A DNA stretch of 64,000 nucleotides from NCBI GenBank assembly GCA_016867115.1, contig VGKG01000003.1, forward strand, positions 64,673-128,672, in the 5' to 3' direction. This DNA comes from Candidatus Omnitrophota bacterium. Lineage in GTDB: Bacteria > Omnitrophota > Gorgyraeia > Gygaellales > Profunditerraquicolaceae. The notes below the pieces were generated by a model. The model had not been told where the DNA came from. It worked only from the letters and a program-made list of their open reading frames with translations, and made no database searches. Both the position numbers and the translations under genes were made by a program. This document shows positions 20,163-64,000 of the stretch, in pieces; the first letter of the stretch is position 1, and every line of letters begins with the position of its first letter.

Positions 20163-20180
20163 CTGAAGAGAAAGGATAAA

Positions 20181-20417: not shown

Positions 20418-20419
20418 AT

Positions 20420-23503: not shown

Positions 23504-23529
23504 GATCTTAGCAGGAAAATAGGTCAATC

Positions 23530-49438: not shown

Positions 49439-51099
49439 TAGACTCTTTATACCCTTTATTTAAAGTGGACACCCTGAACGGCTTCGTGGCCCTGGCAGCC
49501 GGATTATTTACCGTTCTGACAGTGATTTTCTCTCTCAGGTTCATGAAGGGTAAGCCCGGGCTTACCCGGTATTATACCTATATTATAATGACCGCGGTCG
49601 CCTCTGCGGCGGCGGTCCTTTCCAATAACCTGATCTTACTCCTGGCCTGCTGGGGATTTCTCGGCCTGACCCTATATCTTCTGATTCTGACGAATAACGA
49701 TGCCGGCCTGATAGCAAAGAAAACCTTCATTATTGTGGGCGGCTCGGACGCCCTGATGCTTCTGGGGATAGGCATCATCTATTATCTTTCCGGTACGGTC
49801 CAGATGGACGAGATCAGTATTCCTTTGACCGGAGGCTCTCAGCTTCTGGCCGTCGTTGCTTATGTTTCGATCGCCATCGCCTGCTTCGCCAAAGCCGGGG
49901 CCATGCCTTTTCATTCCTGGATCCCGGATTGCGCGAAACTTGCGCCTGTGCCGGTAGTAGCATTTCTGCCTGCCTCCCTGGATAAATTATTGGGCATTTA
50001 CCTGTTGGCTAGGATCTCCCTCAATCTATTCGTGATGAGCGAGGCGATGAATATCTTCCTGATGCTGATCGGCGCCATCACCATCATCGCCGCGGTAATG
50101 ATGGCTTTGATCCAGCATAATATGAAGAAGCTCCTGGGTTACCATGCGGTTTCCCAGGTCGGATACATGGTTTTAGGTATCGGTACCGGAACACCCATCG
50201 GTATTGCGGGCGGGCTATTCCACATGCTGAATAATGCCGTATATAAATCCTGCCTCTTTCTGACCAGCGGTAACGTGGAGTATCGCACAGAGACTACTGA
50301 GCTGGATGAGCTGGGAGGCTTAAGCAGGGCCATGCCCCTGACTTATTTTGCCTGTTTAATTGCCAGCCTCTCTATCTCGGGTATCCCGCCTTTTAACGGC
50401 TTTGTCTCCAAGTGGATGGTCTATCAGGGGCTTATCGAACAGGCGGGGAGCTCCGGTTTCGTAATACGCTTTACGGCCGTTTTCTGCCTGGTGGCAGCCA
50501 TGTTTGGCTCAGGCCTGACCCTGGCCAGCTTTATGAAATTGATCCATGCCACATATCTTAGCCGCCAGCCCGACGCATTGAAGGCCAGAAAAATAAGCGA
50601 GGTTCCCTGGACGATGTGGCTTCCCTGCCTGGTCTTGGCGCTGATCTGTATTGTCTTTGGCGTCTTTGCCAATCAGCTGCCGCTTAAATACTTTATCCTT
50701 CCGGCAGTAGAAGGAGTATCCTTTATCGGGAGCTGGTATTCAGGATTGGCGACTTTGCTTATCGTCATCGGCCTCATCCTCGGTATTTTCGCCTTTAGGT
50801 TAAAAGGGCTGAAGCCCCTTGTCCGGGTAGATAGTGCCTGTGTGGGCGGAGAAGAACTTGACCTGGCTGCCAGCCGGGTTACCGGAACGGAATTTTATAA
50901 TACCATCAGGGACTTAGGCCCTTTAAAAAGGATTTATGCAAAAGCCGAAGCAGGCATTTTTGATATCTATGAGCAGGGAAAGGCCGCTGTTTTCAGTGTG
51001 GGGAAATTCCTGCAGTATCTGCATAACGGTATTTTACCGACGTACCTGGTCTGGACGCTTTTAGGGATGATCCTTTTATTTTTTATCCTGGTGAGATAA
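49435..51099 (+). CDS. Mrp antiporter-type subunit, NuoL/M/N family (MbhH-like)
   Basis: 14-TM antiporter-like fold; HMLNNAVYKSCLFL and GIPPFNGF motifs. Confidence 0.75.
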   Translation: MIDSLYPLFKVDTLNGFVALAAGLFTVLTVIFSLRFMKGKPGLTRYYTYIIMTAVASAAAVLSNNLILLLACWGFLGLTLYLLILTNNDAGLIAKKTFIIVGGSDALMLLGIGIIYYLSGTVQMDEISIPLTGGSQLLAVVAYVSIAIACFAKAGAMPFHSWIPDCAKLAPVPVVAFLPASLDKLLGIYLLARISLNLFVMSEAMNIFLMLIGAITIIAAVMMALIQHNMKKLLGYHAVSQVGYMVLGIGTGTPIGIAGGLFHMLNNAVYKSCLFLTSGNVEYRTETTELDELGGLSRAMPLTYFACLIASLSISGIPPFNGFVSKWMVYQGLIEQAGSSGFVIRFTAVFCLVAAMFGSGLTLASFMKLIHATYLSRQPDALKARKISEVPWTMWLPCLVLALICIVFGVFANQLPLKYFILPAVEGVSFIGSWYSGLATLLIVIGLILGIFAFRLKGLKPLVRVDSACVGGEELDLAASRVTGTEFYNTIRDLGPLKRIYAKAEAGIFDIYEQGKAAVFSVGKFLQYLHNGILPTYLVWTLLGMILLFFILVR

Positions 51100-51629
51100 T
51101 GGAACTACACCTGCTTTTACTCTTTATGATCATAACGGCCATCATCGCCATCGAGGTAAAGGACCTTTTATCCAGTGTCGTGGCCGTGGGCGCAGTGGGT
51201 TTTGCCCTTTGTGTCGCCTTTCTGATCCTGAAAGCGCCGGACCTGGCCATTACCCAGCTTGTGGTTGAGATCCTCTGCCTGATCATCCTGATCCGGGCGA
51301 CCATAAAGAAGGATTTGCCGCTGGTGATTGAAGGCCGCTGGGTCTTCAATACGGTCTCGACGGTGGTCTTTGTCGCGGTCTTTCTTTTCTTTGCCTATGC
51401 TGCACTCCGGGAACTTCCCCAGTTCGGTGAGCCGATGATGTCGGTGGTCAAAAAATATCTGGAAGAGGGGACGAGTGAGACCGGAGCGGTAAATCTGGTT
51501 ACTGCCGTGATCCTTGATTTTCGCGCCTATGATACGCTGGGAGAAGCCACGGTTCTATTTACCGCGGTGATCGGCATTATGGCGGTGCTTCGGCCTCGGG
51601 GAAGAAAAAAAGTTGAGGAGAAGGAATAA
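51099..51629 (+). CDS. MnhB-related membrane subunit (DUF4040 / MbhD-E-like)
   Basis: Hydrophobic 176 aa; position within the Mrp module. Confidence 0.5.
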   Translation: MELHLLLLFMIITAIIAIEVKDLLSSVVAVGAVGFALCVAFLILKAPDLAITQLVVEILCLIILIRATIKKDLPLVIEGRWVFNTVSTVVFVAVFLFFAYAALRELPQFGEPMMSVVKKYLEEGTSETGAVNLVTAVILDFRAYDTLGEATVLFTAVIGIMAVLRPRGRKKVEEKE

Positions 51630-52078
51630 TGGCCTTTGAGCAAAAAAGCGGGATGTCTCTGATCGTTAAGACCATTACCCGCCTGACCGTCGGCCTGATC
51701 TTAATCTTTGGCATTTACATAGTCTTGCACGGGCACCTGTCTCCCGGCGGCGGATTTGCCGGAGGCGTGATCATTGCCCTGGCCTTTGTGCACCTGATGC
51801 TTGCCTTTGGCAAAGACGCCGTCACTACCAGGATCTCTAAAGAGATGGCTTCAAATCTTGAGAGTATCGGCGCGCTCATGTTCCTGGTCATCGCCCTGAT
51901 CGGTTATTTCGGAGGTTCATTCTTTCTGAATATCCTGAGCAAAGGTACTCCGTTTGAGCTGTTTAGTTCCGGTACTATTCCCTTAAGTAACGCCGCAATC
52001 AGTTTAAAAGTAGGGGTAGGGCTATTTGCCATATTCCTGGCATTGGTGATATTAGAGGGGTCGAAGAGGGAGAAATGA
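51629..52078 (+). CDS. Mrp subunit B (MnhB)
   Basis: LSPGGGFAGG signature. Confidence 0.65.
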   Translation: MAFEQKSGMSLIVKTITRLTVGLILIFGIYIVLHGHLSPGGGFAGGVIIALAFVHLMLAFGKDAVTTRISKEMASNLESIGALMFLVIALIGYFGGSFFLNILSKGTPFELFSSGTIPLSNAAISLKVGVGLFAIFLALVILEGSKREK

Positions 52079-52413
52079 CGCTCTATTTATTGTGCCTGGC
52101 ATTGTTTTCTGTTGGCCTTTACGGGGTTTTACGTAAGCGTAACCTCGTAAAGATCATCATTGGCCTGGGGATCATCGAATATTCGATGAACCTCTTCTTT
52201 GTGCTCCTAGGTTACCGCTATCACGGCCGCGCGCCTATTGACGCCCAGGCCCAGGACATCCTGAATATGGTTGACCCGCTTCCCCAGGCGCTGGTACTTA
52301 CTTCGATCGTCATCGGCCTCGGGGTGACTGCATTAGTCATCTCTATTGCCATCAGGATTTACGAGAAGTACGGCACATTCGATATCACAAAGATCAAACG
52401 GCTAAAAGGCTAA
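52075..52413 (+). CDS. Mrp subunit C (NuoK-like)
   Basis: 112 aa, 3 TM helices, NuoK-like. Confidence 0.65.
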   Translation: MTLYLLCLALFSVGLYGVLRKRNLVKIIIGLGIIEYSMNLFFVLLGYRYHGRAPIDAQAQDILNMVDPLPQALVLTSIVIGLGVTALVISIAIRIYEKYGTFDITKIKRLKG

Positions 52414-53925
52414 ATGCAAAACGCAAATATCATTCCTTTGTTTGTGATTATACCGCTGGCAGCTGCTTTTCTGATCTCCCTGATCGGCAGATATGTGAGC
52501 CTGCGCTTCACTAATGCTATTTCGGGCCTGGCCTGTTTTATGCTTTTGGGATTCTCGCTTTACAGTGTATACGTATTGCAGGCCCAGGGCATCCCCGCCC
52601 TGGTTTACAAAGTCGGCGGCTGGGCTATACCCTTTGGTATATGCATGGTCCTTGACGGGCTGACTGCTTTTATGCTGGTCACCGTGAATCTGGTCGCTTT
52701 TTTTGTCAGTATTTATTCGCTCAGCTACATGGATAAATACACAGACCGGCCGAAGTTCTTTACTCTCTTTTTCCTGATGCTCACAGGAATGAACGGCCTG
52801 ATCGTGACCGGAGACCTGTTTAATCTTTTTGTCTTCCTTGAGATCGCCTCCATCGCCAGCTACGCCTTAGTCGCCTTCGGCACCGAGGCAGAAGAATTAG
52901 AGGCCTCTTTTAAATACGCGATCATGGGTTCAGTCGCCTCAAGTTTCATTTTTATCGGAATCGCCTTTTTATACGGCTTTACCTCTACCCTGAATATGGC
53001 GGATATGGCGCAGGTCCTGAACTCCAAGCCCAATCTCTGGGTAGTCCCTTTTGTTACCGTGCTCTTTTTAATGGGTTTTGGCTTAAAGGCAGCGATCGTG
53101 CCCTTCCATGCGTGGCTGCCGGATGCGCATCCGTCTGCTCCGGCCTCAATTTCTGCGATGCTCTCCGGAGTCCTGATCAAAACTCTCGGGGTCTATGCCA
53201 TGGTCAGGGTCTTCTTTAATGTCCTGGGCGTAAGCCAGGCGGTCTTATCTATGTTGATGTTTCTGGGCGCGCTCTCCATGCTGGTAGCGGTCTTTTTGGC
53301 GGTTTCGCAGTGGGACTTAAAGCGGCTCTTGGCCTACCACTCTATCAGCCAGATCGGTTATGTGATTTTAGGTATAGGCCTCGGTACGCCTTTAGGGATC
53401 CTAGGCGGCCTTTTTCATTTGTTCAATCATTCGGTATTTAAATCCCTCCTTTTTTTAAATTCCGGTTCAATAGATTACGCTGTCGGCACGCGCGACTTAA
53501 ACGAAATGGGCGGCTTAAAAGAGAAGATGCCGCTTACCAGCAGCACAAATCTGGTCGCCTCCATGTCTATTGCCGGGATTCCGCCTTTTAACGGGTTTTT
53601 CAGCAAATTGATCATTATTTTTGCCTGCCTTCAGAAAGGCTATTTAGGCTATGCCGTGGCTGCGGTGATCGGCTCGCTTCTGACCCTGGCCAGCTTTATG
53701 AAGGTGCAGAAGTACGCCTTTTTAGGTACCCTGAAAGAAAAATACAGCCAGATAAAGGAAGTGCCTCTGGCCATGCAATTCTCTATGATTTGTTTAGCCA
53801 TTATTTGTATCCTCGGCGGTTTACTCTTATTGCCTGCGCTTAAGTTCTTCCTGAATGACGCTGTGAATGTGCTCCTGGAGGGCAGGGAATATGCCCGGGT
53901 AGTTATGGGATTGAGCGGAAGATGA
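52414..53925 (+). CDS. Mrp subunit D (NuoM/N-like antiporter)
   Basis: FHAWLPDAHP and GIPPFNGF motifs. Confidence 0.75.
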   Translation: MQNANIIPLFVIIPLAAAFLISLIGRYVSLRFTNAISGLACFMLLGFSLYSVYVLQAQGIPALVYKVGGWAIPFGICMVLDGLTAFMLVTVNLVAFFVSIYSLSYMDKYTDRPKFFTLFFLMLTGMNGLIVTGDLFNLFVFLEIASIASYALVAFGTEAEELEASFKYAIMGSVASSFIFIGIAFLYGFTSTLNMADMAQVLNSKPNLWVVPFVTVLFLMGFGLKAAIVPFHAWLPDAHPSAPASISAMLSGVLIKTLGVYAMVRVFFNVLGVSQAVLSMLMFLGALSMLVAVFLAVSQWDLKRLLAYHSISQIGYVILGIGLGTPLGILGGLFHLFNHSVFKSLLFLNSGSIDYAVGTRDLNEMGGLKEKMPLTSSTNLVASMSIAGIPPFNGFFSKLIIIFACLQKGYLGYAVAAVIGSLLTLASFMKVQKYAFLGTLKEKYSQIKEVPLAMQFSMICLAIICILGGLLLLPALKFFLNDAVNVLLEGREYARVVMGLSGR

Positions 53926-54416
53926 AAAGCAAACTAGCCCTTTTTATCATCGGTTTTATCATCTGGATGCTTTTATCCTGGCCGCCGGATATCCAGCATG
54001 CCGTCGTAGGCATCTTTGTTTCTGGCCTGGCCGCCTTCTTAACCGGAGATTTATTTACCCGCCGGCCGCAACACTTTGCCGACATAAAGAGGTATTTGTG
54101 GTTCGGCTATTACATCCCGGTCTTTCTCTGGGAGTGCCTGAAGGCAAATATCGATGTGGCGCTACGCGTGCTTAGCCCGGGATTGCCGATAAACCCGGGG
54201 ATTGTGAAGGTAAAAACTACCCTTAAGTCCGACACCGGGCTGACCTTTCTGGCTAATTCTATCACCCTTACTCCCGGCACATTCTGTGTGGATATAAAAC
54301 CCGAAGAGGGCATCCTTTACATCCACTGGATCGACGTCAAGGCCCAGGATACCGAAAAGGCGACCCAGTTGATCGTGACCAAGTTTGAGAGTATCTTAAA
54401 GAGGATTTTTGAATAA
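53922..54416 (+). CDS. Mrp subunit E (MnhE)
   Basis: MnhE-family conserved blocks. Confidence 0.6.
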   Translation: MKSKLALFIIGFIIWMLLSWPPDIQHAVVGIFVSGLAAFLTGDLFTRRPQHFADIKRYLWFGYYIPVFLWECLKANIDVALRVLSPGLPINPGIVKVKTTLKSDTGLTFLANSITLTPGTFCVDIKPEEGILYIHWIDVKAQDTEKATQLIVTKFESILKRIFE

Positions 54417-54784
54417 TGGGTTATCGAAAGTACCTTTCCTGGTTTTTACTCTTTTTTCTGATTTCGGCAACATTATTCTTTATCGGTTTCTTTACCGTCC
54501 CTTCGCTTCTAGAATGGCAGTCGCCATTTCTGTCGCGCTGTTTCTTTATCCTGATGATCTGTTTTGCCTTATGCTTGATCCGGCTGATAGTCGGGCCTAC
54601 GCCGGCTGACCGGGCAGTGGCAGTGGACACCTTAGGGATCCTGATCGTAGGTTTTTGCGCTATCTTAAGTATCCCCACCGGAAGGGACTGGTACATTGAT
54701 ATTGCCATTGCCTGGGCATTGCAGAGCTTTATCGGCGCCTTGGCCCTGGCAAAATACCTGGAAGGAAGGGGTTTTGATGAGTAG
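54416..54784 (+). CDS. Mrp subunit F (MnhF)
   Basis: 3-TM MnhF pattern. Confidence 0.6.
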   Translation: MGYRKYLSWFLLFFLISATLFFIGFFTVPSLLEWQSPFLSRCFFILMICFALCLIRLIVGPTPADRAVAVDTLGILIVGFCAILSIPTGRDWYIDIAIAWALQSFIGALALAKYLEGRGFDE

Positions 54785-54789
54785 AATAA

Positions 54790-54829
54790 AGATTACACAG
54801 ATTAAAGAAATCAGATTACACAGATTAAA
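54790..54829 (+). repeat. Two perfect 17-nt direct repeats AGATTACACAGATTAAA in the mrpF-mrpG intercistronic gap
   Basis: Copies at 54790-54806 and 54813-54829. Confidence 0.8.
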
Positions 54830-54832
54830 AAA

Positions 54833-55162
54833 ATGATAGAGATCGTGGGATATATATTCATTATTATAGGCCTGGTCTTTGATATCTTTGGCTGTATCGG
54901 CCTTTTACGGCTGCCGGATGTTTATAACCGCCTGCAGGCGACGACAAAATGCGTGACTTTAGGCACCACAAGTATCCTTTTGGGGACCATGGTAATCAAA
55001 GGTTTTACTTCCACGGGAGTAAAGGCATTGCTTTGCATTGTCTTTTTGATTCTGACTGCGCCCGTGGCTGCCCATGCGCTTTCTCGCGGCGCCCATATTT
55101 CCGGGGTCAAGCTCTGGGAAAAATCTGTCTGCGACAAATACGCTGAAGACAAAAAGCAGTAG
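54833..55162 (+). CDS. Mrp subunit G (MnhG)
   Basis: MnhG-family pattern, 109 aa. Confidence 0.7.
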   Translation: MIEIVGYIFIIIGLVFDIFGCIGLLRLPDVYNRLQATTKCVTLGTTSILLGTMVIKGFTSTGVKALLCIVFLILTAPVAAHALSRGAHISGVKLWEKSVCDKYAEDKKQ

Positions 55163-55197
55163 TTAGCAGATAGCAGGTAGTAGTTAGGGAGAAGTAA

Positions 55198-55809
55198 ATG
55201 CGTTATCCGAAACTAAGAGAATTAAAAGAGGCGATCAAGGCGCTCATCAAAGGGCCTTATACCAGCAAGTTCCCTTACCAGGCGCATGAGCCGTACGAGC
55301 GCTTCCGCGGCCGGCCTTATTTTCACGAGGAAGACTGCACAGGCTGCACTGCCTGCGCCGAGGTCTGCCCCACAACCGCTATTGAGGTGGAAGATAAGGT
55401 TTCAGGAGGCAAAGCAAAGAGGCGACTTACCGTCCACTGGGATATCTGTATCTGCTGCGGCCAGTGCGAGCTGAATTGCCTTACCGGCAAAGGCATCACC
55501 CTTTCCCGGGAGTTCGCCTACGCCACTACCGAAAGCAAGAGCGAACTCAAACAGGAGATAGACAAGGAGTTCGTCACCTGCGAATGCTGCGGCGAGCCGG
55601 TCGTCCCCTATGACCAGTATGCCTGGGTCGCAAAGCGCCTCGGGCCCCTTTGTTTCTCCAATTCCTCTCTCATGCTTTTCTACCTTAAGCTCTTGGGCCT
55701 GGCTTTTAGGAGTAAGCCTTCTACCCGCAAGAAGACAGAGGTCTTACGCCAGGACCGCATCGGAATCCTTTGCCCCCGCTGCCGCCGCGAAGCAGTTTTA
55801 AAATCATAA
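55198..55809 (+). CDS. NuoI-like 2x[4Fe-4S] ferredoxin subunit (MbhN-like)
   Basis: CTGCTACAEVCP and CICCGQCELNC motifs. Confidence 0.7.
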   Translation: MRYPKLRELKEAIKALIKGPYTSKFPYQAHEPYERFRGRPYFHEEDCTGCTACAEVCPTTAIEVEDKVSGGKAKRRLTVHWDICICCGQCELNCLTGKGITLSREFAYATTESKSELKQEIDKEFVTCECCGEPVVPYDQYAWVAKRLGPLCFSNSSLMLFYLKLLGLAFRSKPSTRKKTEVLRQDRIGILCPRCRREAVLKS

Positions 55810-55835
55810 AAATAAAAAGATTAGGGATTTTAAAT

Positions 55836-55911
55836 GATTACACAGATTTCTTTAGATTACACAGATTGAAAACTTTAATCTGTAGAATCTGTATTCATAA
55901 TCTGTGTAATC
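55836..55911 (+). repeat. Nested inverted-repeat structure built from the GATTACACAGATT motif (two direct copies plus three inverted or degenerate copies)
   Basis: Direct copies at 55836-55849 and 55854-55867; inverted copies AATCTGTAGAATC at 55877-55889 and AATCTGTGTAATC at 55899-55911, forming a perfect 13-bp inverted repeat with the direct copy. Confidence 0.75.
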
Positions 55912-55924
55912 AATTATTAATAAG

Positions 55925-57163
55925 ATGTTTTCCTCCCTCAAGGTCCGCGATTTCCGCCTCTACTGGTTCGGGATGCTTGTTTCGCTTGTCGGCACCTGGA
56001 TCCAGTCCGTAGCCCAGAGTTGGCTCGTCTTTCAATTGACCGGCTCAGCTTTTCTTCTGGGGGTGGTCGGTTTCTTAAGCTCGATTCCGATATTTGTTTT
56101 TTCGCTCTTTGGCGGCCTGCTGGCTGACCGCCTGAACAAGAGAAAGATCCTCCTTGCCACCCAGACCTCCTTTATGCTCCTTGCTTTTCTACTGGCCGCA
56201 CTTACCCAGCTGAAGCTGGTTACTCCGGCTCAGATCATGTTCATTGCATGTTTAAACGGTGCGGTCATGGCTTTTGACGCGCCCAGCCGCCAGGCAGTGG
56301 TAGTGGAGCTGGTAGGTAAAGAGCATCTTTTAAACGCCATTGCCTTAAACTCCGTGGCCTTCAACTCCAGCCGCATCATCGGCCCGGCCGTGGCCGGGAT
56401 CCTGGTGGCTACGATCGGCATGAGCGGCTGTTTCTACCTGAACGGCATAAGCTTCCTGGCGGTGATTCTGGCGCTCGCCGTGATCCGCACGCACAACCAC
56501 GTAAAAGCCAATAAGAAGGCAGGGCTGATCTTAGACCTGAAAGAGGGCTTTAGCTTCGTAAAAAAACATTACCTGATCCTGGTCTTGGTAGCCATGGTGG
56601 GGATGGTGAGTCTATTCGGCGTGGGCTACATCATCCTGATGCCGGTCTTTGCAGAGCAGGTCTTAAAAGCCGGGGTGAAGGGCTTAGGGGTATTGATGTC
56701 TGCTTCCGGCTTTGGCGCCCTGATCGGCGCATTGACCCTGGCGCGGCTGGGTGACTTTCGTTATAAGGGAAAGCTTCTTTTGGCATCCAGCCTCATTTAC
56801 TCGGTTTCCCTGATTCTTTTTTCACTCTCTCAGGCCTTTTTCTTTGCGTTGATAGCTCTATTCCTGATTGGCGCAGGCGGCGTCACTTCCATCGCCCTGA
56901 TCAATACCCTTTTACAGTCAGGAGTGCCGGATGAGTTCCGGGGCCGGGTAATGAGCATCTTTATGCTTACCTTTGCCGGTTTTATGCCCTTCGGCAATCT
57001 CTTTGCCGGCAGTCTCGCGCAGGTAATCGGGGTCTCCGCAACCATATTCTTAAGCGGGGTAATTTGCACCATTTTCTTCATTCTTATTAACCTGATTTAC
57101 CCCCAAATACGCAGCCTAAAGCAACAGATTGGACATTCATTCCAGGCTGAGACCCCCCTTTAA
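55925..57163 (+). CDS. MFS transporter (DHA/EntS-like)
   Basis: 12 TM helices; GGLLADR MFS motif A. Confidence 0.7.
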   Translation: MFSSLKVRDFRLYWFGMLVSLVGTWIQSVAQSWLVFQLTGSAFLLGVVGFLSSIPIFVFSLFGGLLADRLNKRKILLATQTSFMLLAFLLAALTQLKLVTPAQIMFIACLNGAVMAFDAPSRQAVVVELVGKEHLLNAIALNSVAFNSSRIIGPAVAGILVATIGMSGCFYLNGISFLAVILALAVIRTHNHVKANKKAGLILDLKEGFSFVKKHYLILVLVAMVGMVSLFGVGYIILMPVFAEQVLKAGVKGLGVLMSASGFGALIGALTLARLGDFRYKGKLLLASSLIYSVSLILFSLSQAFFFALIALFLIGAGGVTSIALINTLLQSGVPDEFRGRVMSIFMLTFAGFMPFGNLFAGSLAQVIGVSATIFLSGVICTIFFILINLIYPQIRSLKQQIGHSFQAETPL

Positions 57164-57410
57164 TCGGATTAATAATCTATTTGTAAAAGTATTTTATAAA
57201 CTACTAATAAAGCAATTTCGCTTAGATTGGACATTATAAACTTAAGCTCAGGATTACTCTGGCACTACCAAGCGCATTTGATTTTACGCTACAACTAAAA
57301 GAGGTATTTTTATTGTTATAAACCCATGATTTTAATAAAAAAATGATTTGATTGGACACCATTAAGTATTATAAAACTGTCCAAACTTTCTTTGAGGGGC
57401 AAAAAAACAT

Positions 57411-57440
57411 TTGACAAGAAGGTGCACTTGTGTTATAATC
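57411..57440 (+). promoter_or_regulatory. Near-consensus sigma70 promoter TTGACA-17-TGtTATAAT
   Basis: -35 at 57411-57416, extended -10 at 57431-57439; the track ORF start at 57411 is the -35 TTG itself. Confidence 0.65.
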
Positions 57441-57455
57441 GCTTCCCCTGGAGAA

Positions 57456-59159
57456 ATGCAGCATTCTGCACTAGGCCAGGAAAAAAGGAGGAGAGCCATT
57501 AACAAAGCCTTTAGAGAGACTATAACTTTGGTTTTGTCCATTGTGCTCCTGTTTTCATTTTGTCCAATTTGTTTTCCCGCCGAGCCGCAGGCCCAGGACT
57601 TCATCACTATTAAAAATAAGAGCCCCCAGGATATCTTCGATGACGCCAACTACCTTTACCAGCTGGGAGATTTTGAAGGCGCACTTGCCCTTTTTAACCG
57701 CGCCTATGACCAGGCAGATAATCCGGCATTAAAAAGAAAGGCCAAGCTCGGAGCCGAAGTCACCGCCCTATTACTTAAATCCGAAAGAGTCAGCCCCAAA
57801 GATGCGCAAAAGGTGATCAGGCGCGCAGGTAAGATCAAAGAGCGCCAGAAAAAAGAGCAGCTGGATGAGCTCTATAAAGACGCCTTTGGCTGTTATTTTA
57901 AAGAAGATTACGAAAAATCAGCTGAGATATTCCGCAAGATCCTTGAGCTTTACCCCGAAGAGGCAATGGCTAAGGATTATCTGCGGGTAAAGATCCCCCA
58001 AGAAGAGAAAAAAATTAAGGCCGCCTCTCTCTACCAGCAGGCCCTTTCTGATTTAGCAGATAATAACTACGATCAGGCAATAACGGGTTTTCAGAAGGCC
58101 CTTGCCCTTGATCCTGCCCATAAGGAGGCCAAAGACTACCTGGAGCAGAAGATTCCCGCGAAATTGGCGCAAGACAAAAGACAGAAGATAGACGTGCTTT
58201 ACCGCCAGGCGCTTTCGGATTTTGCGGATAAGAAGTACGATTCGGCGGCTGAGTCATTCAAGGAGATCCTGGTCCTTGAGCCCGGGGAAGCGCAGGCAGC
58301 GGATTATATAAAGGTAAAGATACCTGACCTGCTTAAGGCAGAAAAGATCGCCTCCCTTTATCCGCAGGCGCTGGAATATTTCAAGCAGGCAGATTACGAG
58401 AAGTCCCTGCAGGTCTTTAACGAGATCCTCTCCCTTGACCCCGGACAGAAGGAGGCTAAGGATTATGCTCAGGTAAAGATCCCGGCGATCCTGACCGAGC
58501 AGAAAGTAAAGGCCTTATACCTCCAGGCCAACGCCTATTACCAGATCAAGAGTTACGCCAAGGCAGAAGAGTTTTACCGGCAGATACTCGCCCTTGACCC
58601 CAAGCAGGAGAAGGCAAGAGGCTACGTAGAAAAGGAGATTCCTCAGAGGCTCAAAGAAATAGAGGATGCCAAGCGGCTTATGGTGCGCAAAGACGCAGAG
58701 AAGTTTGCGCTGGAAATGGAAAAGGCCAAAGCTAAGGAGCTGCGGGAAAGGCAGGAGCAGGATAGGCAAGCCCGCCGGGTAGAGCAAGAGAAGGAGTTGG
58801 CCGCCAGGAAAAAGAGCGCCCAGGTACAGGTAGCGGCTAAGGAAAAGAAGGTTATGAAGAAGCAAGAGAAGCCAAAGTCCGCAGAACAACCGGTGCTGGC
58901 GCCGCCAGCTCCGAAAAAAGAGCCTGTGCCGGAAAAGAAACAGGAAGTAGCCCTTAAGCGCGAACAGGCTTCACCCTCCAGGCTTGGCGTGCCGATGAAC
59001 TATCCCCGCGACGGAGTGGTGGGTTATATGTATGAAACGGCTTTTAAATATTACAAAGAAGGAGATTTAGAATTAGCCGGGGAGTATTTCCGCAAGATCC
59101 TCCTGACTGACCCCGGACAACAATTAGCCAAAAGATACCTGCAAGAAACCTTTAAGTAA
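57456..59159 (+). CDS. TPR-like repeat protein with N-terminal signal/anchor and C-terminal KE-rich coiled coil plus Pro-rich tail
   Basis: About 7 repeats of a 50-55 aa unit (...EAKDY..VKIP...LY.QAL...Y..A...F..IL.LDP...); start at ATG 57456 is uncertain because of the very short leader. Confidence 0.55.
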   Translation: MQHSALGQEKRRRAINKAFRETITLVLSIVLLFSFCPICFPAEPQAQDFITIKNKSPQDIFDDANYLYQLGDFEGALALFNRAYDQADNPALKRKAKLGAEVTALLLKSERVSPKDAQKVIRRAGKIKERQKKEQLDELYKDAFGCYFKEDYEKSAEIFRKILELYPEEAMAKDYLRVKIPQEEKKIKAASLYQQALSDLADNNYDQAITGFQKALALDPAHKEAKDYLEQKIPAKLAQDKRQKIDVLYRQALSDFADKKYDSAAESFKEILVLEPGEAQAADYIKVKIPDLLKAEKIASLYPQALEYFKQADYEKSLQVFNEILSLDPGQKEAKDYAQVKIPAILTEQKVKALYLQANAYYQIKSYAKAEEFYRQILALDPKQEKARGYVEKEIPQRLKEIEDAKRLMVRKDAEKFALEMEKAKAKELRERQEQDRQARRVEQEKELAARKKSAQVQVAAKEKKVMKKQEKPKSAEQPVLAPPAPKKEPVPEKKQEVALKREQASPSRLGVPMNYPRDGVVGYMYETAFKYYKEGDLELAGEYFRKILLTDPGQQLAKRYLQETFK

Positions 59160-59161
59160 CC

Positions 59162-60859
59162 ATGCTGAGAAACATTTGGCCGAAAACCGCTTACGTTTTC
59201 GTTTTTTTGTCTATAGGGGCAGGACTCTGTTTTGCCCAGGCGCCAGCTTCTACCAAGGCCGGGATCATCCAGGAGAAGATCCAGGGGGAGATGAAAAGAG
59301 AGGAGCCCTTTAGGGTAGAGGAGAAAAAACCCCTGCCCGGGGTGGAAGATGAGAGGCAGCCGCCGCCGGCCCTGAAAATGGAGCCTAAGGTGCGCGTGCT
59401 GATCAAGAAGTTTGCGCTCGTGGGGGTGACTAAGTTCAAGCCGGAGGATTTCACTGCCTACCTGGCGCAGTTTCGCGGCAAAGAGCTGGGGATGGATGAG
59501 CTAAATACAATCGCCGCTTACATCCAGGGCTTCTACCGCCAGAAAGGCTACATCACCACCTTTGTCTACATCGGGCCGCAGGACATCAAAGACAATACCC
59601 TTGAGATCCAGGTCATCGAGGGTTATATCGGCCAGGTGGAGGTAGAGGGCGGAAAATATTTCAGCCGCGAACGGGTACGCGAAGAGTCGCGTATCCGGCC
59701 GGGCGAGACGATCCTGTATAAGGACCTCATCCGCAATGTCAGGAGGCTTAACCTCCATCCTGACCGCCGAGTAAAGGCGGTGCTGATCAGGGGAGAGAAG
59801 TTTGAAACTACGGATGTAGTCCTTAAGATGACGGATTCGCGGCCGCAGCATGCCTTTATCGAATATGACAACCGCGGCACCAGGTATATAGGTAAGCAGC
59901 GTTTTTCAACCGGCTACATCAATAATAACCTTTTAGGCATTGAGGATATCCTTTCTTTAAGGTTTCTTAAGGGCAATGAAAAGCTGATCGGCGGAAGCTT
60001 CGACTACAATTTCCCCCTCACTTACGATGAGTTGCGGCTGGGGATGAACTTTAGTTACTCCAATGTGGATATCTTAAGGGAGTTTGGCGCCCTGGGCGCT
60101 GAGGGGAATGCCCTGATCGGCGGGGTGTATGCGACTTATCCGTTTTTTGATGAGGAGCATCTGCGCGCCAGGTGGACCATAGGCCTGGACATCAAGAGGA
60201 GCGAGAACCGGATCCTCGATACTAAGACCAGCGAAGATAACCTGAGCGTCGCCAAGATGAATGTGAGCTTAAGCCAGGATGACCGCTTTGGTTCCACATT
60301 CCTGGCCCAGGAGCTGGATTTCGGGATCCCGGATTTTGCCGGCTCTTTAGGCAAGGATGATACGCGCGCCAGCCGCCTGGGCGCCGGAGGGCAATTCAGC
60401 AAGTATACGATGAACCTGAGGCGTCAGATCAACCTGCCCTTTTCAAGCTACCTGCTTTTGATCTCCCGGGGCCAGTATACGCCGGATAAACTGGTGGCCG
60501 GAGAGCAGTTTTACATCGGAGGCGCGGATACGGTCAGGGGCTATCCTGAACTGGAGTACATGGGCGATTACGGCTACAACGTAAACGTGGAGCTGCGCAC
60601 CCCGCTCTGGTTCCTGCCCAAGTCGATTCAGGATAAGATCCAGATGGTCTATTTCTGGGACTTCGGCGAGGGGTATCTGCGTAATGCCCTGGTCGGGGAG
60701 AAGAAATCCGAATCCCTGATGGGTACCGGCTGGGGAGTGAGGCTTAATCTGCATAAGAACTTTTACCTGAAGGCTGATTGGGGCTTTCCTATAGACCCCA
60801 AGCCTTCGGATAATTCCAAGAGCACGGCGCATTTGTGGGCGCACTGGGACTTATTCTAA
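59162..60859 (+). CDS. TpsB (ShlB/FhaC family) two-partner-secretion outer-membrane transporter
   Basis: Signal peptide, POTRA domain, beta-barrel, C-terminal WAHWDLF. Confidence 0.8.
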   Translation: MLRNIWPKTAYVFVFLSIGAGLCFAQAPASTKAGIIQEKIQGEMKREEPFRVEEKKPLPGVEDERQPPPALKMEPKVRVLIKKFALVGVTKFKPEDFTAYLAQFRGKELGMDELNTIAAYIQGFYRQKGYITTFVYIGPQDIKDNTLEIQVIEGYIGQVEVEGGKYFSRERVREESRIRPGETILYKDLIRNVRRLNLHPDRRVKAVLIRGEKFETTDVVLKMTDSRPQHAFIEYDNRGTRYIGKQRFSTGYINNNLLGIEDILSLRFLKGNEKLIGGSFDYNFPLTYDELRLGMNFSYSNVDILREFGALGAEGNALIGGVYATYPFFDEEHLRARWTIGLDIKRSENRILDTKTSEDNLSVAKMNVSLSQDDRFGSTFLAQELDFGIPDFAGSLGKDDTRASRLGAGGQFSKYTMNLRRQINLPFSSYLLLISRGQYTPDKLVAGEQFYIGGADTVRGYPELEYMGDYGYNVNVELRTPLWFLPKSIQDKIQMVYFWDFGEGYLRNALVGEKKSESLMGTGWGVRLNLHKNFYLKADWGFPIDPKPSDNSKSTAHLWAHWDLF

Positions 60860-60875
60860 AAAACGGAAAGATAAA

Positions 60876-63800
60876 ATGAAGAAAAATGCCTTTTTAAACT
60901 CTTTATTAGTACTGTTGATGGTCTTTCAGAACAGTTATCTTCTGGCTGATCCGCTTCCCAGTAACCCTGTTGACCGCATTGGTTCATCTACCGTGACCAG
61001 AGACGGCAATACCATGAATGTCACTACGCCAGACGGCCGCTGGTGGGGGGACTTGAACTCGTTTAATATTGCCCAGGGCTACACTTTGAACAGTATGGGG
61101 CCTTCGGCTGATGCGGTGATGCTCTACAATGTTACCGGGCCCTCGGGGTCGAATATTTCCGGCCTATGGAACAGCAACTGTAACCAGTTCCTGATCAATC
61201 CTAACGGCATATTATTCTCGTCCACCGCCCAGGTGAATGTAGGCGGGTTAGTCGCCTCTACTTTAAGCATCTCGCAGGATGATTTCTTAAGCGGAAAGTA
61301 TTATTTTGAAAATAGCAAAGCCAGCCCTTCTTACCTGATCAACGAGGGCATGATCAGGGCCAGTGACGGCGGCAATGTCGCTCTGATCGCCGGGGCAGTG
61401 AGAAATAGCGGTACGATCACTACGCGTTTAGGCAGCATAAACTTGGTCTCCGGGGATAAAGTCACCCTGGACCTGGATAGCCGGGGGTATCTGGCTGCCG
61501 CAGTTGATGATCAGGTCAAAGAAGAGGTCCTGGACCAGAACGGCGAGAAGATGTCGGATGCCGTAAAAAATAGCGGCATCCTTTCTGCCGAAGGCGGCAA
61601 GGTAGAGCTCAAAGCCGAAGCCCTGGAGGGTATCTTTGATAACCTGGTGAATCAGGAAGGTACAGTCAGGGCGAATTCCCTGGTTGAGCATGACGGCGTG
61701 GTGAGCCTGGTTTCAGAAAGTGACGGGATCATCCAGAACTCCGGCACTATCGATGTTTCGGCAACAGAGACAGGAGCTAGTGGCGGAAGTATTGCCATGC
61801 GCGGGGATAAGGTCGGCCAGTTCGGCATCCTGCATGCGGATGCCGTAGACGGCGATGGCGGAAACATCGATCTGATTGCCCGGACTATAGTCGCCTTAAG
61901 CCCCTTTAGCCTGGCTACTGCCAATGCCGGCTTAAATGGCGACGGAGGCAGGATCATCAATTATTCGCCGGATACTGCGCTTTTCTGGGAAGGCGCCAGG
62001 ATAGAGGCAAAGGGCGGCACTCTCTCTGGTAACGGCGGTTTTGTTGAGGTATCCGGTAAAGAGCATGTGGAGGTCTACGGCTTGGTGGATACCAGCGCGC
62101 CTTCCGGCCTGACCGGGAACTTCCTTATTGATCCTTATAATGTAGAAATAAGATCGATCGGAAATGATAACAACGGAAGCTGGGGCGGCGGGAACCCCAA
62201 TATTTGGACCCCCAGCGGCACTCCTTCTCAGATACGGAATAATAATATCACCTCCAATTTGGCGACTTCCAATGTCACAATTACGACTACCGGCGCAGGC
62301 CTTGAAGACGGCGATATCACTGTCAGCGGCGCTATCAATGTGGATGGCGGTAACGGCAATACTTTGACTTTACAGGCGCATGATGACATCATCGTGAATG
62401 CGGCAATCTCAGATTCTGCTCCCGGGAGTGTCGATGTGGTGGGCGTGACCTTGATCGCAAACAGCGATGCCTCAGGCGGCGGCAGCGTAGACATAAATGC
62501 AAACATCAGCACCTACGGGGGTACTTTTGCTTCAAGCGGGGTAAACTTTGACAGCACCGGAGCCACAATCGATACCAGCGGCGGCACTGCCAACCTTAAT
62601 CATACCGGAACAGCTACGCTGGGCGCAGTGAATAGCGGTACCTTGAGCGTCACGGCAGGCGGCGCAATAACCGATTCCGGGGCCCTCACCGTTACCGGCT
62701 CAACTACCCTTGCTGCCGGAGCAGGCAATAATATTACTTTAGATAACGCCAATAACTTTAACAGCGTCGGGATCACCTCCGGAAATAACGTCACCCTGAA
62801 TGACATTAATGCCATTGCCTTAAATGCCTCCACTGTCTCCGGCACCCTGAATGTCACCAGCGTAGGAGCGATCACCGATAACGGAATCCTTACTGTCAGC
62901 GGCACCACCACCCTGGCTGCCGGTGCGGCTAATAACATCACCCTGGATAATAATAACAACTTCTCAAGCGTCGGGATCACCTCTGGCAATAATGTCACTC
63001 TGGTAGACATTAATGCCATTGGCCTGGATGCCTCAAGCGTTTCCGGCACCCTGAATGTCACCTCAAGCGGCGCGATCACCGATAACGCTGCGCTCACCGT
63101 GGCGGGGGCCACTACCCTGGCTGCAGGTGCGGCTAACAACATTACCTTAGATAACGCCAATGACTTCTCAAGTGTGGGAATTACCTCAGGCAATAACGTC
63201 ACCTTAAACGATACTAATGCCATTGCCTTGGATGCTTCTACTATTTCAGGAGCCCTGAATGTCACTACCAACGGCACCATTACTGATAACGGGGCCCTTA
63301 CTGTCACCGGCGCTACCACTCTGGCTGCCGGAGCAGGCAATGACATTACCCTGGATAATGCCAATAACTTTAACAGCGTAGGTATTACTAGCGGTAACAA
63401 CGTTACCTTAAATGACACCAATGCCTTAAGCCTCAATGCCTCTACCGTCTCAGGTACCCTGGATGTCACCACTGCCGGCGCAATCACTGATAATGCTGCC
63501 ATCAATGTAACCGGCACTGCCACCTTTGCTGCGGGCAGCGGAAATAATATTACCTTAAATAACAGTAATGATTTTTCTACAGTAGGGATCACTACCGGCA
63601 ATAACGTTACCCTGGTAGATGCTAATGCCATAGATTTGGCTGCTTCCACTGTCTCAGGCACCCTGAATGTCACCTCAAACGGCGTAATTACAGATAGCGG
63701 TGCACTTACCGTTACCGGCGCCACTACCCTGGCTGCCGGAGCAGGCAATGACATTACCTTAAATACCGCAGGCAATAATTTCTCAAGCGTAGGCATTACT

Positions 63801-64000
63801 ACCGGCAATAACGTCACCCTGGTGGATACGAATGCTTTAGCCTTGAACGCCTCGACTATTTCCGGGAATCTGAATATCAGCACCTCGGGAGCCATTACGG
63901 ATAATGCCGCATTCAGCGTATCCGGCACCACCACCCTGGCTGCCGGTGCGGCTAATAACATCACCCTGGATAATAATAACAACTTCTCAAGCGTCGGGAT
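60876..64000 (+). CDS. TpsA-type exoprotein (filamentous-haemagglutinin-like), 3' partial, with TPS secretion domain and tandem 68-aa beta-helical repeats
   Basis: Signal peptide; TPS-domain NPNGILF motif (FLINPNGILFSS); at least 20 repeats of G-x-ITD-x-G-x-LTV-x-G-TTLAAGAGN-x-ITLDNANNF-x-SVGITSGNNVTL; open to the window end, so missing from the track. Confidence 0.75.
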   Translation, partial: MKKNAFLNSLLVLLMVFQNSYLLADPLPSNPVDRIGSSTVTRDGNTMNVTTPDGRWWGDLNSFNIAQGYTLNSMGPSADAVMLYNVTGPSGSNISGLWNSNCNQFLINPNGILFSSTAQVNVGGLVASTLSISQDDFLSGKYYFENSKASPSYLINEGMIRASDGGNVALIAGAVRNSGTITTRLGSINLVSGDKVTLDLDSRGYLAAAVDDQVKEEVLDQNGEKMSDAVKNSGILSAEGGKVELKAEALEGIFDNLVNQEGTVRANSLVEHDGVVSLVSESDGIIQNSGTIDVSATETGASGGSIAMRGDKVGQFGILHADAVDGDGGNIDLIARTIVALSPFSLATANAGLNGDGGRIINYSPDTALFWEGARIEAKGGTLSGNGGFVEVSGKEHVEVYGLVDTSAPSGLTGNFLIDPYNVEIRSIGNDNNGSWGGGNPNIWTPSGTPSQIRNNNITSNLATSNVTITTTGAGLEDGDITVSGAINVDGGNGNTLTLQAHDDIIVNAAISDSAPGSVDVVGVTLIANSDASGGGSVDINANISTYGGTFASSGVNFDSTGATIDTSGGTANLNHTGTATLGAVNSGTLSVTAGGAITDSGALTVTGSTTLAAGAGNNITLDNANNFNSVGITSGNNVTLNDINAIALNASTVSGTLNVTSVGAITDNGILTVSGTTTLAAGAANNITLDNNNNFSSVGITSGNNVTLVDINAIGLDASSVSGTLNVTSSGAITDNAALTVAGATTLAAGAANNITLDNANDFSSVGITSGNNVTLNDTNAIALDASTISGALNVTTNGTITDNGALTVTGATTLAAGAGNDITLDNANNFNSVGITSGNNVTLNDTNALSLNASTVSGTLDVTTAGAITDNAAINVTGTATFAAGSGNNITLNNSNDFSTVGITTGNNVTLVDANAIDLAASTVSGTLNVTSNGVITDSGALTVTGATTLAAGAGNDITLNTAGNNFSSVGITTGNNVTLVDTNALALNASTISGNLNISTSGAITDNAAFSVSGTTTLAAGAANNITLDNNNNFSSVG
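62590..64000 (+). repeat. Tandem coding repeats of about 204 nt inside tpsA; copies 1.0 kb apart share over 40 identical nucleotides
   Basis: 62941-62990 is nearly identical to 63964-64000; the periodic sequence also generates a spurious antisense ORF. Confidence 0.8.

What the first reader, a model, noticed from the sequence alone, without database searches (positions are those of the whole stretch)
57456..64000. Three-gene two-partner secretion locus: TPR-repeat periplasmic protein, TpsB transporter, giant repeat-rich TpsA exoprotein
A 568-aa protein with a signal sequence, about 7 degenerate 52-aa TPR-like repeats and a KE/Pro-rich tail immediately precedes a ShlB/FhaC-type transporter. 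Next is a TpsA whose N-terminal TPS domain (NPNGILF) is followed by at least 20 nearly identical 68-aa beta-helix repeats and continues beyond the window. Canonical TPS systems have only TpsB and TpsA, so the upstream TPR protein is a candidate dedicated chaperone or anchor.
Basis: partly seen in the sequence, partly recalled or inferred. Interest (0 to 1): 0.6.

Follow-up and report, generated by a model that had tools for sequence, protein, structure and literature searches.

The report
Secretion operon with conserved third partner
This is a two-partner (type Vb) secretion operon from an uncultured Omnitrophota-like bacterium. A helical-repeat protein that is probably exported to the periplasm is encoded immediately upstream of the transporter gene in almost every related locus examined, which suggests an undescribed third component of this normally two-protein system.

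Summary
The three genes are real. A 567-aa TPR protein (57456-59159), a TpsB transporter (59162-60859) and a TpsA exoprotein (60876 to beyond 64000) follow a perfect sigma-70-like promoter. The gaps between them are 2 and 16 nt, and there is no credible terminator.

The window holds 6.6 copies of the 68-aa unit (Pfam DUF5649), 66-85% identical, not "at least 20 nearly identical".

In 23 of 24 informative TpsB clusters (down to 35% identity, varied flanks), the gene directly upstream of tpsB carries one copy of a ~52-aa signature module (window residues 46-98). The reverse also holds: 10 of 10 informative module proteins are followed by tpsB.

The conserved part is this module, not the TPR array. 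In distant relatives the rest of the protein is K/E/A/Q-rich and coiled-coil-like.

The family is rare (about 23 full-module clusters among 1.84 billion representatives). It has no Pfam family of its own and no literature was found.

The TpsA model matches EtpA and HMW1 β-helix adhesins.

Best reading: a lineage-specific periplasmic accessory protein that docks on TpsB and/or handles the very long TpsA. This mechanism is inferred, not shown. I rate it a new variant of a known kind.

The parts
57411..57439 (+). Sigma-70-type promoter-like site: TTGACA, 17 nt, TATAAT, with TG before the -10 hexamer. It ends 16 nt upstream of the ATG of the first gene.
   Evidence: 12 of 12 consensus matches. It is the only perfect site in 56800-61200. 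Sequence read. Function as a promoter is inferred.
57456..59159 (+). Gene 1: a 567-aa helical-repeat (TPR-type) protein with a signal sequence, proposed as the accessory third partner. An alternative TTG start lies at 57411.
   Evidence: ORF. Pfam TPR_2 96 bits and TPR_1 68 bits. AF2 model is all-helical, pLDDT 81.5. An identical protein, P0001, is present in a JGI metagenome.
57456..57581 (+). Signal-sequence region, residues 1-42: a KRRR-rich n-region and a hydrophobic core at residues 22-40. Probable cleavage is after A42 or A46.
   Evidence: Sequence read. Most homologues have classical A-x-A or V-x-A signal-peptidase-I sites at the same place. No canonical lipobox is seen. No signal-peptide predictor was available, so cleavage is inferred.
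57591..57749 (+). Signature module, residues 46-98 (AQDFITIKNKSPQDIFDDANYLYQLGDFEGALALFNRAYDQADNPALKRKAKL): a short extended segment (F-I-T-I-K) followed by one TPR-like helical hairpin. This is the only part conserved across the whole family.
   Evidence: One strong copy per protein in the gene upstream of tpsB in 23 of 24 informative TpsB clusters. hhalign of the TPR clade against the charged clade gives probability 95%, E 4e-8, in register. About 23 full-module clusters are found in 1.84 billion representatives.
57864..58655 (+). Five 52-53-aa 'TPR-KIP' units (LY..A...Y....Y..A...F..IL.LDP.Q.EAK.Y...KIP). Each is modelled as one long helix (32-35 aa) plus one short helix (14 aa).
   Evidence: Alignment. 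AF2 secondary structure with pLDDT above 90. The only PDB sequence matches are consensus-TPR designs. Foldseek gives generic TPR hits at TM about 0.1, so the model is not a canonical compact solenoid.
58608..58979 (+). Charged single helix (residues 385-460) and a disordered Lys/Glu/Pro-rich linker (residues 458-508).
   Evidence: AF2 gives helix H385-460 and pLDDT below 50 for residues 458-508. This region varies in length among homologues.
58998..59156 (+). Conserved C-terminal TPR-like unit (DGVVGYMYETAFKYYKEGDLELAGEYFRKILLTDPGQQLAKRYL).
   Evidence: Near-invariant columns. AF2 helices 520-566, pLDDT about 90.
59162..60859 (+). Gene 2: TpsB outer-membrane transporter (FhaC/ShlB type), 565 aa. 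The POTRA_2 match is at about 59402-59623, the barrel at about 59807-60745, and the loop-6 motif is DTVRGYPE.
   Evidence: Pfam ShlB 107.5 bits, POTRA_2 74.8 bits, Omp85 44.5 bits, all above cutoff. Relatives are 55-60% identical in the TPR clade and 35-41% in the distant clade.
60876..64000 (+). Gene 3: TpsA exoprotein, 5' part only (1041 aa, open at the window end). It has a signal peptide, a TPS domain at about 61038-61754, and NPNGILF at 61197-61217.
   Evidence: Frame open to the window end. Pfam TPS 82.6 bits. TIGR01901 52.7 bits. AF2 model is all-beta, pLDDT 87.4, pTM 0.69. Foldseek: EtpA E 2e-29; EtpA secretion domain TM 0.89; HMW1 secretion domain TM 0.79.
62660..64000 (+). Tandem 204-nt (68-aa) repeats in TpsA: 6.6 copies within the window (Pfam DUF5649).
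   Evidence: Tandem Repeats Finder: period 204, 6.6 copies, 70% matches. Pfam DUF5649, 7 stretches, 342.8 bits. Amino-acid identity 66-85%.

Best explanation
The locus is a type Vb (two-partner) secretion operon of an Omnitrophota-like bacterium, transcribed from one promoter as gene1-tpsB-tpsA.

TpsA is an EtpA/HMW1-like β-helical exoprotein of unknown full length. It is exported by Sec and passed through the TpsB barrel.

Gene 1 encodes a lineage-specific third component. It is a Sec-exported, elongated, all-helical periplasmic protein.
- Its one conserved ~52-aa module (an extended F-I-T-I-K segment plus one TPR-like hairpin) is proposed to dock it to the periplasmic face of TpsB (POTRA domains or the N-terminal helix), or to the TPS domain of TpsA.
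- Its variable helical body (TPR-KIP units here, K/E/A/Q-rich coiled-coil-like repeats in relatives) is proposed to act as a scaffold or holdase that keeps the very long, unfolded TpsA competent for secretion on its way across the periplasm.

Shown: the gene identities, the operon-like packing, and the two-way co-conservation of the module protein with tpsB.

Inferred: periplasmic location, docking, and the chaperone or scaffold action.
For: Identities:
- Pfam and NCBIfam hits above cutoff for TpsB and TpsA.
- The TpsA AF2 model matches the EtpA, HMW1, HxuA and FHA secretion domains.

Operon:
- A perfect -35/-10 promoter-like site lies just upstream of gene 1.
- The gaps are 2 nt and 16 nt.
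- In relatives the gene 1/tpsB junction runs from an 8-nt overlap to a 23-nt gap in 9 of 10 loci with gene calls, and 40-45 nt between open frames in two distant loci.
- There is no significant terminator.

Co-conservation:
- A module-bearing gene lies directly upstream of tpsB in 23 of 24 informative TpsB clusters, spanning 35-100% TpsB identity.
- The reverse test gives 6 of 6 informative homologues of the whole protein and 4 of 4 proteins found by the module profile alone.
- Flanking genes differ between loci: IS elements, an oxidative-stress cluster, ABC plus MazE/PIN genes, SecA/Lnt, FeoAB, aromatic amino-acid genes.
- In this window the oxidative-stress cluster that abuts the locus in six relatives lies about 36 kb away, yet the three genes stay together.

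Module homology across clades: hhalign probability 95%, E 4e-8.

Export: signal peptides with signal-peptidase-I-type sites in most homologues.

Shape: confident all-helical model with long helices and a disordered linker.
Against: - No interaction, localisation or secretion dependence was or could be tested.
- In the monomer model the F-I-T-I-K segment has low confidence and no secondary structure, so docking through an added β-strand is speculative.
- Apart from the module, the body of the protein is poorly conserved and in many relatives is low-complexity charged sequence. That fits a spacer or structural role as well as a chaperone role.
- One informative cluster (L021) has an unrelated 202-aa gene upstream of tpsB, and one contig (L036) has a transposase there. 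So the partner may not be indispensable.
- Nearly all the evidence comes from fragmentary metagenome contigs of one lineage. Shared ancestry contributes to the synteny counts.
Confidence: 0.55

Rival explanations
1. Envelope-spanning tether or ruler. Gene 1 would encode a TolA/TonB-like strut, either anchored in the inner membrane by an uncleaved signal-anchor or bound to peptidoglycan. It would bridge the periplasm to TpsB and couple Sec export to outer-membrane translocation, or fix the spacing, rather than bind the substrate as a chaperone.
For: - A 76-residue single charged helix and a Lys/Glu/Pro-rich disordered linker that resembles TonB.
- Relatives are 63-81% K/E/A/Q/R, resembling TolA domain II (the resemblance is from general knowledge).
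- The window protein's own predicted cleavage site is poor, with F at position -3.
- Distant-clade TpsBs have a heptad-like N-terminal helix that could pair with a coiled coil.
Against: - Most homologues have good signal-peptidase-I sites, which argues for a soluble periplasmic protein.
- No TolA or TonB C-terminal domain, or any other Pfam domain, was found.
- The module sits at N-terminal, central or C-terminal positions in different members. That is hard to reconcile with a polar strut of fixed topology.
Confidence: 0.15
2. The partner acts after or outside secretion. Gene 1 product would hold the exported TpsA at the cell surface, regulate its release, or contribute to adhesion or envelope structure. 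It would be co-expressed with the TPS pair but would not take part in translocation.
For: - The co-conservation and co-expression evidence shows functional linkage but does not say at which step.
- Known third genes of TPS loci act on the substrate rather than on transport, for example HMW1C/EtpC glycosyltransferases (PMC3983070) and CdiI immunity proteins (PMC3150448).
Against: - There is no enzymatic, lipoprotein-anchor or outer-membrane domain.
- A Sec signal alone gives no route to the cell surface.
- The gene precedes tpsB and is tightly coupled to it, rather than following tpsA as most substrate-modifying partners do.
Confidence: 0.15
3. Neighbourhood without function. The upstream gene would be an unrelated periplasmic repeat protein whose position next to tpsB is simply inherited within one lineage.
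For: All loci come from related, uncultured Omnitrophota or Planctomycetota-labelled MAGs. L021 and L036 lack the gene.
Against: - The order persists while TpsB diverges to 35% identity, while the partner's body is replaced by a different repeat type, and while flanking genes change.
- Stop and start codons overlap or nearly touch.
- All 10 module proteins with readable downstream sequence are followed by tpsB.
Confidence: 0.05

Closest known systems
FhaC/FhaB, ShlB/ShlA and other canonical two-partner (type Vb) secretion systems
   Same: The TpsB has ShlB-type POTRA domains, an Omp85-type barrel and the loop-6 VRGY motif. The TpsA has a Sec signal, a TPS domain with the NPNG motif, and a β-helical passenger.
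   Different: Canonical systems have two genes. Periplasmic help comes from general chaperones encoded elsewhere (DegP, Par27; general knowledge). Here a dedicated exported helical protein is encoded first in the operon and is co-conserved with tpsB.
EtpBAC (ETEC) and HMW1ABC (Haemophilus influenzae) three-gene TPS loci
   Same: These are the closest structural matches for TpsA: EtpA 8vbb at E 2e-29, EtpA secretion domain TM 0.89, HMW1 secretion domain TM 0.79. They are also TPS loci with a third gene, and etpBAC has the same B-before-A order.
   Different: Their third gene is a cytoplasmic glycosyltransferase encoded after tpsA (PMC3983070). Here it is a signal-peptide-bearing TPR or coiled-coil protein with no enzyme domain, encoded before tpsB.
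BamD (YfiO), the TPR lipoprotein partner of the Omp85 protein BamA
   Same: A periplasm-facing TPR protein paired with an Omp85-superfamily transporter. There is weak sequence and fold similarity: TIGR03302 40 bits and Rhodothermus BamD 3qky among the Foldseek hits.
   Different: The score is far below the family cutoff (40.1 against 81.4). There is no lipobox. The architecture is different and much longer. The partner is a TpsB, not BamA.
Slam (surface lipoprotein assembly modulator): an N-terminal TPR domain fused to an outer-membrane barrel
   Same: TPR repeats on the periplasmic side of an outer-membrane protein translocator. There is a faint match to PF24575 TPR_Slam.
   Different: The match is 25.1 bits against a cutoff of 35.2. 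Slam's barrel is DUF560, not ShlB, and its TPR domain is fused to the barrel rather than being a separate protein.
CpoB/YbgF and TolA of the Tol-Pal system
   Same: Exported proteins that combine a long charged helix or coiled coil with TPR units (CpoB), or a K/A/E-rich periplasm-spanning helix (TolA). There is a weak match to TIGR02795, 27.8 bits.
   Different: The match is below cutoff (90.1). There is no tol-pal gene context and no TolA C-terminal domain. The signature module is absent from those families, as far as Pfam and NCBIfam show.

Membership tests
TpsB (FhaC/ShlB) transporters of type Vb secretion | ShlB-type POTRA domain(s) followed by an Omp85-superfamily β-barrel | tested here: met
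   PF08479 74.8 bits (cutoff 24), PF03865 107.5 bits (cutoff 22.7), PF01103 44.5 bits (cutoff 24).
TpsB (FhaC/ShlB) transporters of type Vb secretion | Conserved loop-6 (V/I)RG(Y/F) motif | tested here: met
   'GGADTVRGYPE' is present. R459 and G460 are invariant among 9 relatives.
TpsB (FhaC/ShlB) transporters of type Vb secretion | Needed for secretion of the cognate TpsA | not testable with these tools
   Requires genetics or reconstitution.
TpsA exoproteins | Sec signal plus an N-terminal TPS domain with the NPNG motif | tested here: met
   PF05860 82.6 bits (cutoff 33.5), TIGR01901 52.7 bits (cutoff 29.1). NPNGILF at residues 108-114.
TpsA exoproteins | Right-handed β-helix fold of the secretion domain and passenger | tested here: met
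   AF2 model pLDDT 87.4, all-beta. Foldseek TM 0.89 to the EtpA secretion domain and 0.79 to HMW1. This is a prediction, not a solved structure.
DUF5649 repeat (PF18886) | 68-residue tandem repeat matching the Pfam profile | tested here: met
   342.8 bits, 7 stretches. Period 204 nt.
Tetratricopeptide (TPR) repeat proteins | 34-residue helix-turn-helix motifs matching TPR profiles | tested here: met
   TPR_2 96.1 bits, TPR_1 67.8 bits, TPR_14 52.4 bits, all above cutoff. Consensus-TPR designs are the only PDB sequence hits. The global model does not superpose on canonical TPR solenoids (TM about 0.1).
BamD / YfiO | Match to TIGR03302 above cutoff, and a lipoprotein signal | tested here: not met
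   40.1 bits against a cutoff of 81.4. No canonical lipobox in the window protein or its homologues.
Type III secretion class II chaperones (LcrH/SycD) | Match to TIGR02552 above cutoff; a small cytoplasmic protein | tested here: not met
   44.6 bits against a cutoff of 104.8. The protein is 567 aa with a signal sequence.
Slam | TPR_Slam domain above cutoff, fused to a DUF560 barrel | tested here: not met
   PF24575 25.1 bits against a cutoff of 35.2. No barrel domain in gene 1.
HMW1C/EtpC-type third partner | Glycosyltransferase domain | tested here: not met
   Only TPR-class Pfam hits in gene 1.
TolA / TonB periplasm-spanning proteins | Uncleaved N-terminal membrane anchor and a conserved C-terminal domain | tested here: inconclusive
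   No TolA or TonB Pfam/NCBIfam hit. Cleavage of the signal could not be predicted with the tools. Homologues mostly show signal-peptidase-I-type sites.

The most novel reading that the evidence does not exclude
Omnitrophota-type TPS systems would be obligate three-partner machines. The module protein would bind TpsB through its 52-aa module and form an elongated helical track or conduit across the periplasm. Multi-thousand-residue TpsA proteins would be handed along it from Sec to the outer-membrane pore. That would make it a dedicated periplasmic component for type V secretion, a pathway usually described as having none.
Probability: 0.2. Interest if true: 0.75.

Novelty: new variant of a known kind. 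Interest (0 to 1): 0.55.

Why it matters
Type V secretion is usually presented as the simplest Gram-negative secretion route, with no dedicated periplasmic machinery. How very long unfolded TpsA chains survive the periplasm is only partly understood.

A protein family that travels with tpsB through deep divergence is a concrete candidate for a dedicated periplasmic partner. It is defined by one short module, which makes it easy to recognise.

It occurs in Omnitrophota. These are ultra-small, probably host-attached bacteria known for very large proteins. A large surface-exposed TpsA adhesin would fit an attachment lifestyle, although neither surface display nor the full length of this TpsA was shown here.

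If the link is functional, the 52-aa module gives a handle for structural and biochemical tests. It would also allow better annotation of genes that are now labelled only 'TPR repeat protein' or 'hypothetical'.

Tried and rejected
- **Full-length tpsA.** The identical TPR protein P0001 is not in the gene-position index. The only contig returned for the identical TpsB (L008) also ends inside tpsA. A search with TpsA residues 1-620 found no identical protein, and the best hit was 47% identical. The full length stays unknown. Relatives exceed 2,777 aa (L011).
- **Third word-indexed protein search with the 53-aa module profile.** It returned one hit only, because the query was too short for the index.
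- **Fold search of the TPR model.** It gave only generic TPR matches with TM about 0.1 and no specific functional analogue.
- **Link to Omnitrophota 'giant genes'.** The two relevant papers do not mention TPS, hemagglutinin or ShlB. I dropped this lead.
- **Co-variation between partner type and TpsA repeat type.** DUF5649-like repeats are rare in the other TpsA fragments, and no correlation was visible.
- **Internal terminator at 59181-59201.** It is weak and inside the coding sequence, so I rejected it.
- **GATTGGACA sites.** They are not conserved in other loci.
- **Literature searches for TPR plus TPS three-gene loci.** Nothing relevant was found.
- **Pfam scan of the 2,777-aa L011 TpsA.** It returned no family, although phmmer shows a clear TPS domain. 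I treat this as a filter artefact.
Full report
**What is in the sequence**

Between 57411 and the window end there are three co-directional genes.
- Gene 1 (57456-59159, 567 aa) has strong TPR matches: TPR_2 96 bits, TPR_1 68 bits.
- Gene 2 (59162-60859, 565 aa) is a TpsB: POTRA_2 74.8 bits, ShlB 107.5 bits, Omp85 44.5 bits. It carries the loop-6 motif DTVRGYPE.
- Gene 3 starts at 60876 and is still open at 64000 (1041 aa). It has a short signal peptide and a TPS domain (PF05860 82.6 bits; TIGR01901 52.7 bits) with NPNGILF at residues 108-114. It also has 68-aa repeats that Pfam already knows as DUF5649 (342.8 bits, 7 stretches).

- Tandem Repeats Finder gives 6.6 copies of a 204-nt unit at 62660-64000 with 70% matches.
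- The six full copies are 66-85% identical as protein.

The 'KE/Pro-rich tail' of gene 1 is in fact a linker. It is a 76-residue charged helix plus a disordered Pro-rich stretch, followed by a last conserved TPR-like unit.

**Operon structure**

- A perfect TTGACA-17-TATAAT site (57411-57439) ends 16 nt before the ATG of gene 1. It is the only 12-of-12 match in the region.
- Gene 1 and tpsB are 2 nt apart. tpsB and tpsA are 16 nt apart.
- The one terminator-like hairpin near the junction lies inside the tpsB codons. It is not more stable than shuffled sequence (-6.5 kcal/mol, z -0.86).

**Does the gene order recur?**

The whole-protein search found only 13 relatives in 5.8 billion clusters. 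Every one whose contig could be read downstream has the order gene 1, tpsB, tpsA.

Named relatives are MAGs labelled Candidatus Omnitrophota or 'uncultured Planctomycetales/Planctomycetia'. The nearest TpsA homologues are also from Candidatus Omnitrophota.

I then scanned metagenome contigs with a TpsB profile and analysed all loci with my own ORF calls and HMMs.
- The TpsBs fall into 31 clusters at 95% identity.
- Seven clusters are uninformative because the contig starts at or near tpsB.
- Of the 24 informative clusters, 23 have a gene carrying the signature module described below on the same strand directly upstream of tpsB.
- This breaks down as all 10 clusters with TpsB 54-100% identical to the window, and 13 of 14 with TpsB 35-41% identical.
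- The exceptions are L021 (an unrelated 202-aa protein) and one contig, L036, with a transposase.

The reverse test also holds. Four proteins found only through the module profile in 1.84 billion representatives are all followed by tpsB, at 8, 23, -4 and 6 nt.

Flanking genes differ widely among loci. In six relatives an oxidative-stress cluster abuts gene 1. In this window the same cluster lies at 15.9-21.3 kb, about 36 kb away. The three genes therefore move as a block.

**What is actually conserved in gene 1**

It is not the TPR array. The conserved part is a ~52-aa module: window residues 46-98, consensus xSD[FY]IxIKxKxxxxIFxDANYLxxxGxYExALxxYNYAxDIxxDKxLK[RK].
- It is present once per protein.
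- It sits at the N-terminus, in the middle, or near the C-terminus.
- A profile-profile comparison of the module from the TPR clade and from the distant clade gives 95% probability, E 4e-8, in register.

Around the module the family mixes two kinds of helical filler.
- One is 52-53-aa 'TPR-KIP' units (…LDPxQxEAKxYLxxKIP…).
- The other is K/E/A/Q/R-rich repeats making up 63-81% of residues in distant members.

Almost all members start with a signal peptide, usually with a good signal-peptidase-I site and no canonical lipobox.

The family is small. About 23 representative clusters have a full single-copy module. Pfam and NCBIfam see only generic TPR in it.

**Structure predictions**

Gene 1 product (AF2 with 12 sequences; pLDDT 81.5, pTM 0.40):
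- It is entirely helical.
- Each unit is one long helix (32-35 aa) plus one short helix (14 aa).
- Residues 385-460 form a single long helix, and 458-508 are disordered.
- The segment holding F-I-T-I-K has low confidence.
- Foldseek finds only generic TPR proteins with TM about 0.1, so the overall shape is not a canonical compact TPR solenoid.
- PDB sequence hits are consensus-TPR designs only.

TpsA fragment (AF2 with 28 sequences; pLDDT 87.4, pTM 0.69):
- It is all-β.
- It matches EtpA (E 2e-29), the EtpA secretion domain (TM 0.89), the HMW1 secretion domain (TM 0.79), HxuA and FHA.

**How it most likely works**

Established knowledge of type Vb secretion explains genes 2 and 3. TpsA is exported by Sec, its TPS domain is recognised by the POTRA domains of TpsB, and it is threaded through the barrel and folds outside as a β-helix.

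For gene 1, the data show a dedicated, co-expressed and co-inherited partner. Its signal peptide suggests export to the periplasm, which was not tested. My preferred mechanism (about 0.55 for the overall picture, less for the details) has two parts.
- The module docks the protein to TpsB or to the TPS domain.
- The elongated helical body serves as a scaffold or holdase for the long unfolded substrate.

The rivals are a TolA/TonB-like envelope-spanning tether (0.15), a post-secretion or surface-retention role (0.15), and non-functional synteny (0.05).

None of the functional steps could be tested here.

**Comparison with known systems**

- Genes 2 and 3 meet the defining features of TpsB and TpsA.
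- Gene 1 is a TPR protein by profile. It fails the thresholds for BamD (40 against 81 bits), LcrH/SycD (45 against 105) and TPR_Slam (25 against 35), and it has no glycosyltransferase domain as in HMW1C/EtpC.
- Functionally the nearest analogy is BamD with BamA: a TPR partner of an Omp85-family protein. Architecturally it recalls CpoB and TolA.
- Literature searches found no description of a TPR or coiled-coil gene as part of TPS loci. The Omnitrophota giant-protein papers do not mention TPS.

**Verdict**

The genes and domains are right; the repeat count and the 'tail' are wrong.
Dedicated linkage is supported, while the role is untested and the conserved element is the module rather than the TPR array.
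- This is a new variant of a known kind: an ordinary TPS pair plus a lineage-specific, previously unnamed accessory family.
- Interest is moderate (0.55). It would be higher if an interaction with TpsB or TpsA were demonstrated.

Noticed in passing
window 57127-57135, 57225-57233, 57350-57358 (+); partial inverted copy 57378-57384: GATTGGACA occurs three times in direct orientation (98 and 125 nt apart) in the 330 nt upstream of the operon promoter. There are only 4 exact copies in the whole 64-kb window, against 0.52 expected. These are candidate regulator binding sites. They are not conserved in other loci apart from the identical contig L008.
   Followed up: partly
window 23525-23635 (+): TPP riboswitch (RF00059, 59.9 bits, above the gathering score), upstream of the ORF at 23705-24517.
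   Followed up: no
window 1-64000: All 41 ORFs of at least 200 aa that look like genes in 1-52000, and all genes in 52000-64000, are on the + strand. There are no tRNA genes in 64 kb. The strand bias is striking.
   Followed up: no
window 15897-21325 (+): An oxidative-stress cluster: an AhpC/Redoxin-Pterin_4a fusion, an NAD-binding oxidoreductase, a flavodiiron-type ODP plus flavodoxin protein, and a thioredoxin-reductase-like protein. In six relatives (L003, L004, L005, L007, L009, L011) the same cluster lies directly upstream of the TPS locus. Here it is about 36 kb away, so a rearrangement has occurred.
   Followed up: partly
window about 49435-55809 (+): An Mrp/Mbh-type multisubunit antiporter-like cluster (MbhD/E, MnhB, Oxidored_q2, Proton_antipo_M, MNHE, MrpF, PhaG), followed by a 4Fe-4S protein and an MFS_3 transporter. 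It lies just upstream of the TPS operon.
   Followed up: no
L023, L012, L022, L030, L034, L037, L038, L042, L043, L051 (N-termini of TpsB): TpsBs of the distant clade carry a long heptad-like N-terminal helix (for example LKAEVQSLRTKVDQLEKTVAGQAELIAQQTKVLEKIAEV), where the window TpsB has a short H1-type helix. These are the loci whose upstream partner is coiled-coil-like, so the two may pair.
   Followed up: no
L001-L011, L014-L052: Contigs very often end inside tpsA, presumably because assembly breaks at its repeats. As a result no full-length TpsA of the close clade was seen. L011 TpsA exceeds 2,777 aa. L012 TpsA (1,718 aa) contains a run of N. In L004 tpsA is split into two overlapping ORFs, either a frameshift or an error.
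   Followed up: partly
L001/L002 1000-3159; L036 141-1403: IS-type transposase genes (HTH_Tnp_1, rve) lie directly upstream of the three-gene block in L001/L002. A transposase-like ORF replaces the partner gene upstream of tpsB in L036.
   Followed up: no
L011 13973-22303: The Pfam scan of this 2,777-aa TpsA returned no family at all, although phmmer shows a clear TPS-domain match (E 3e-127). This is probably an effect of composition-bias filtering.
   Followed up: no
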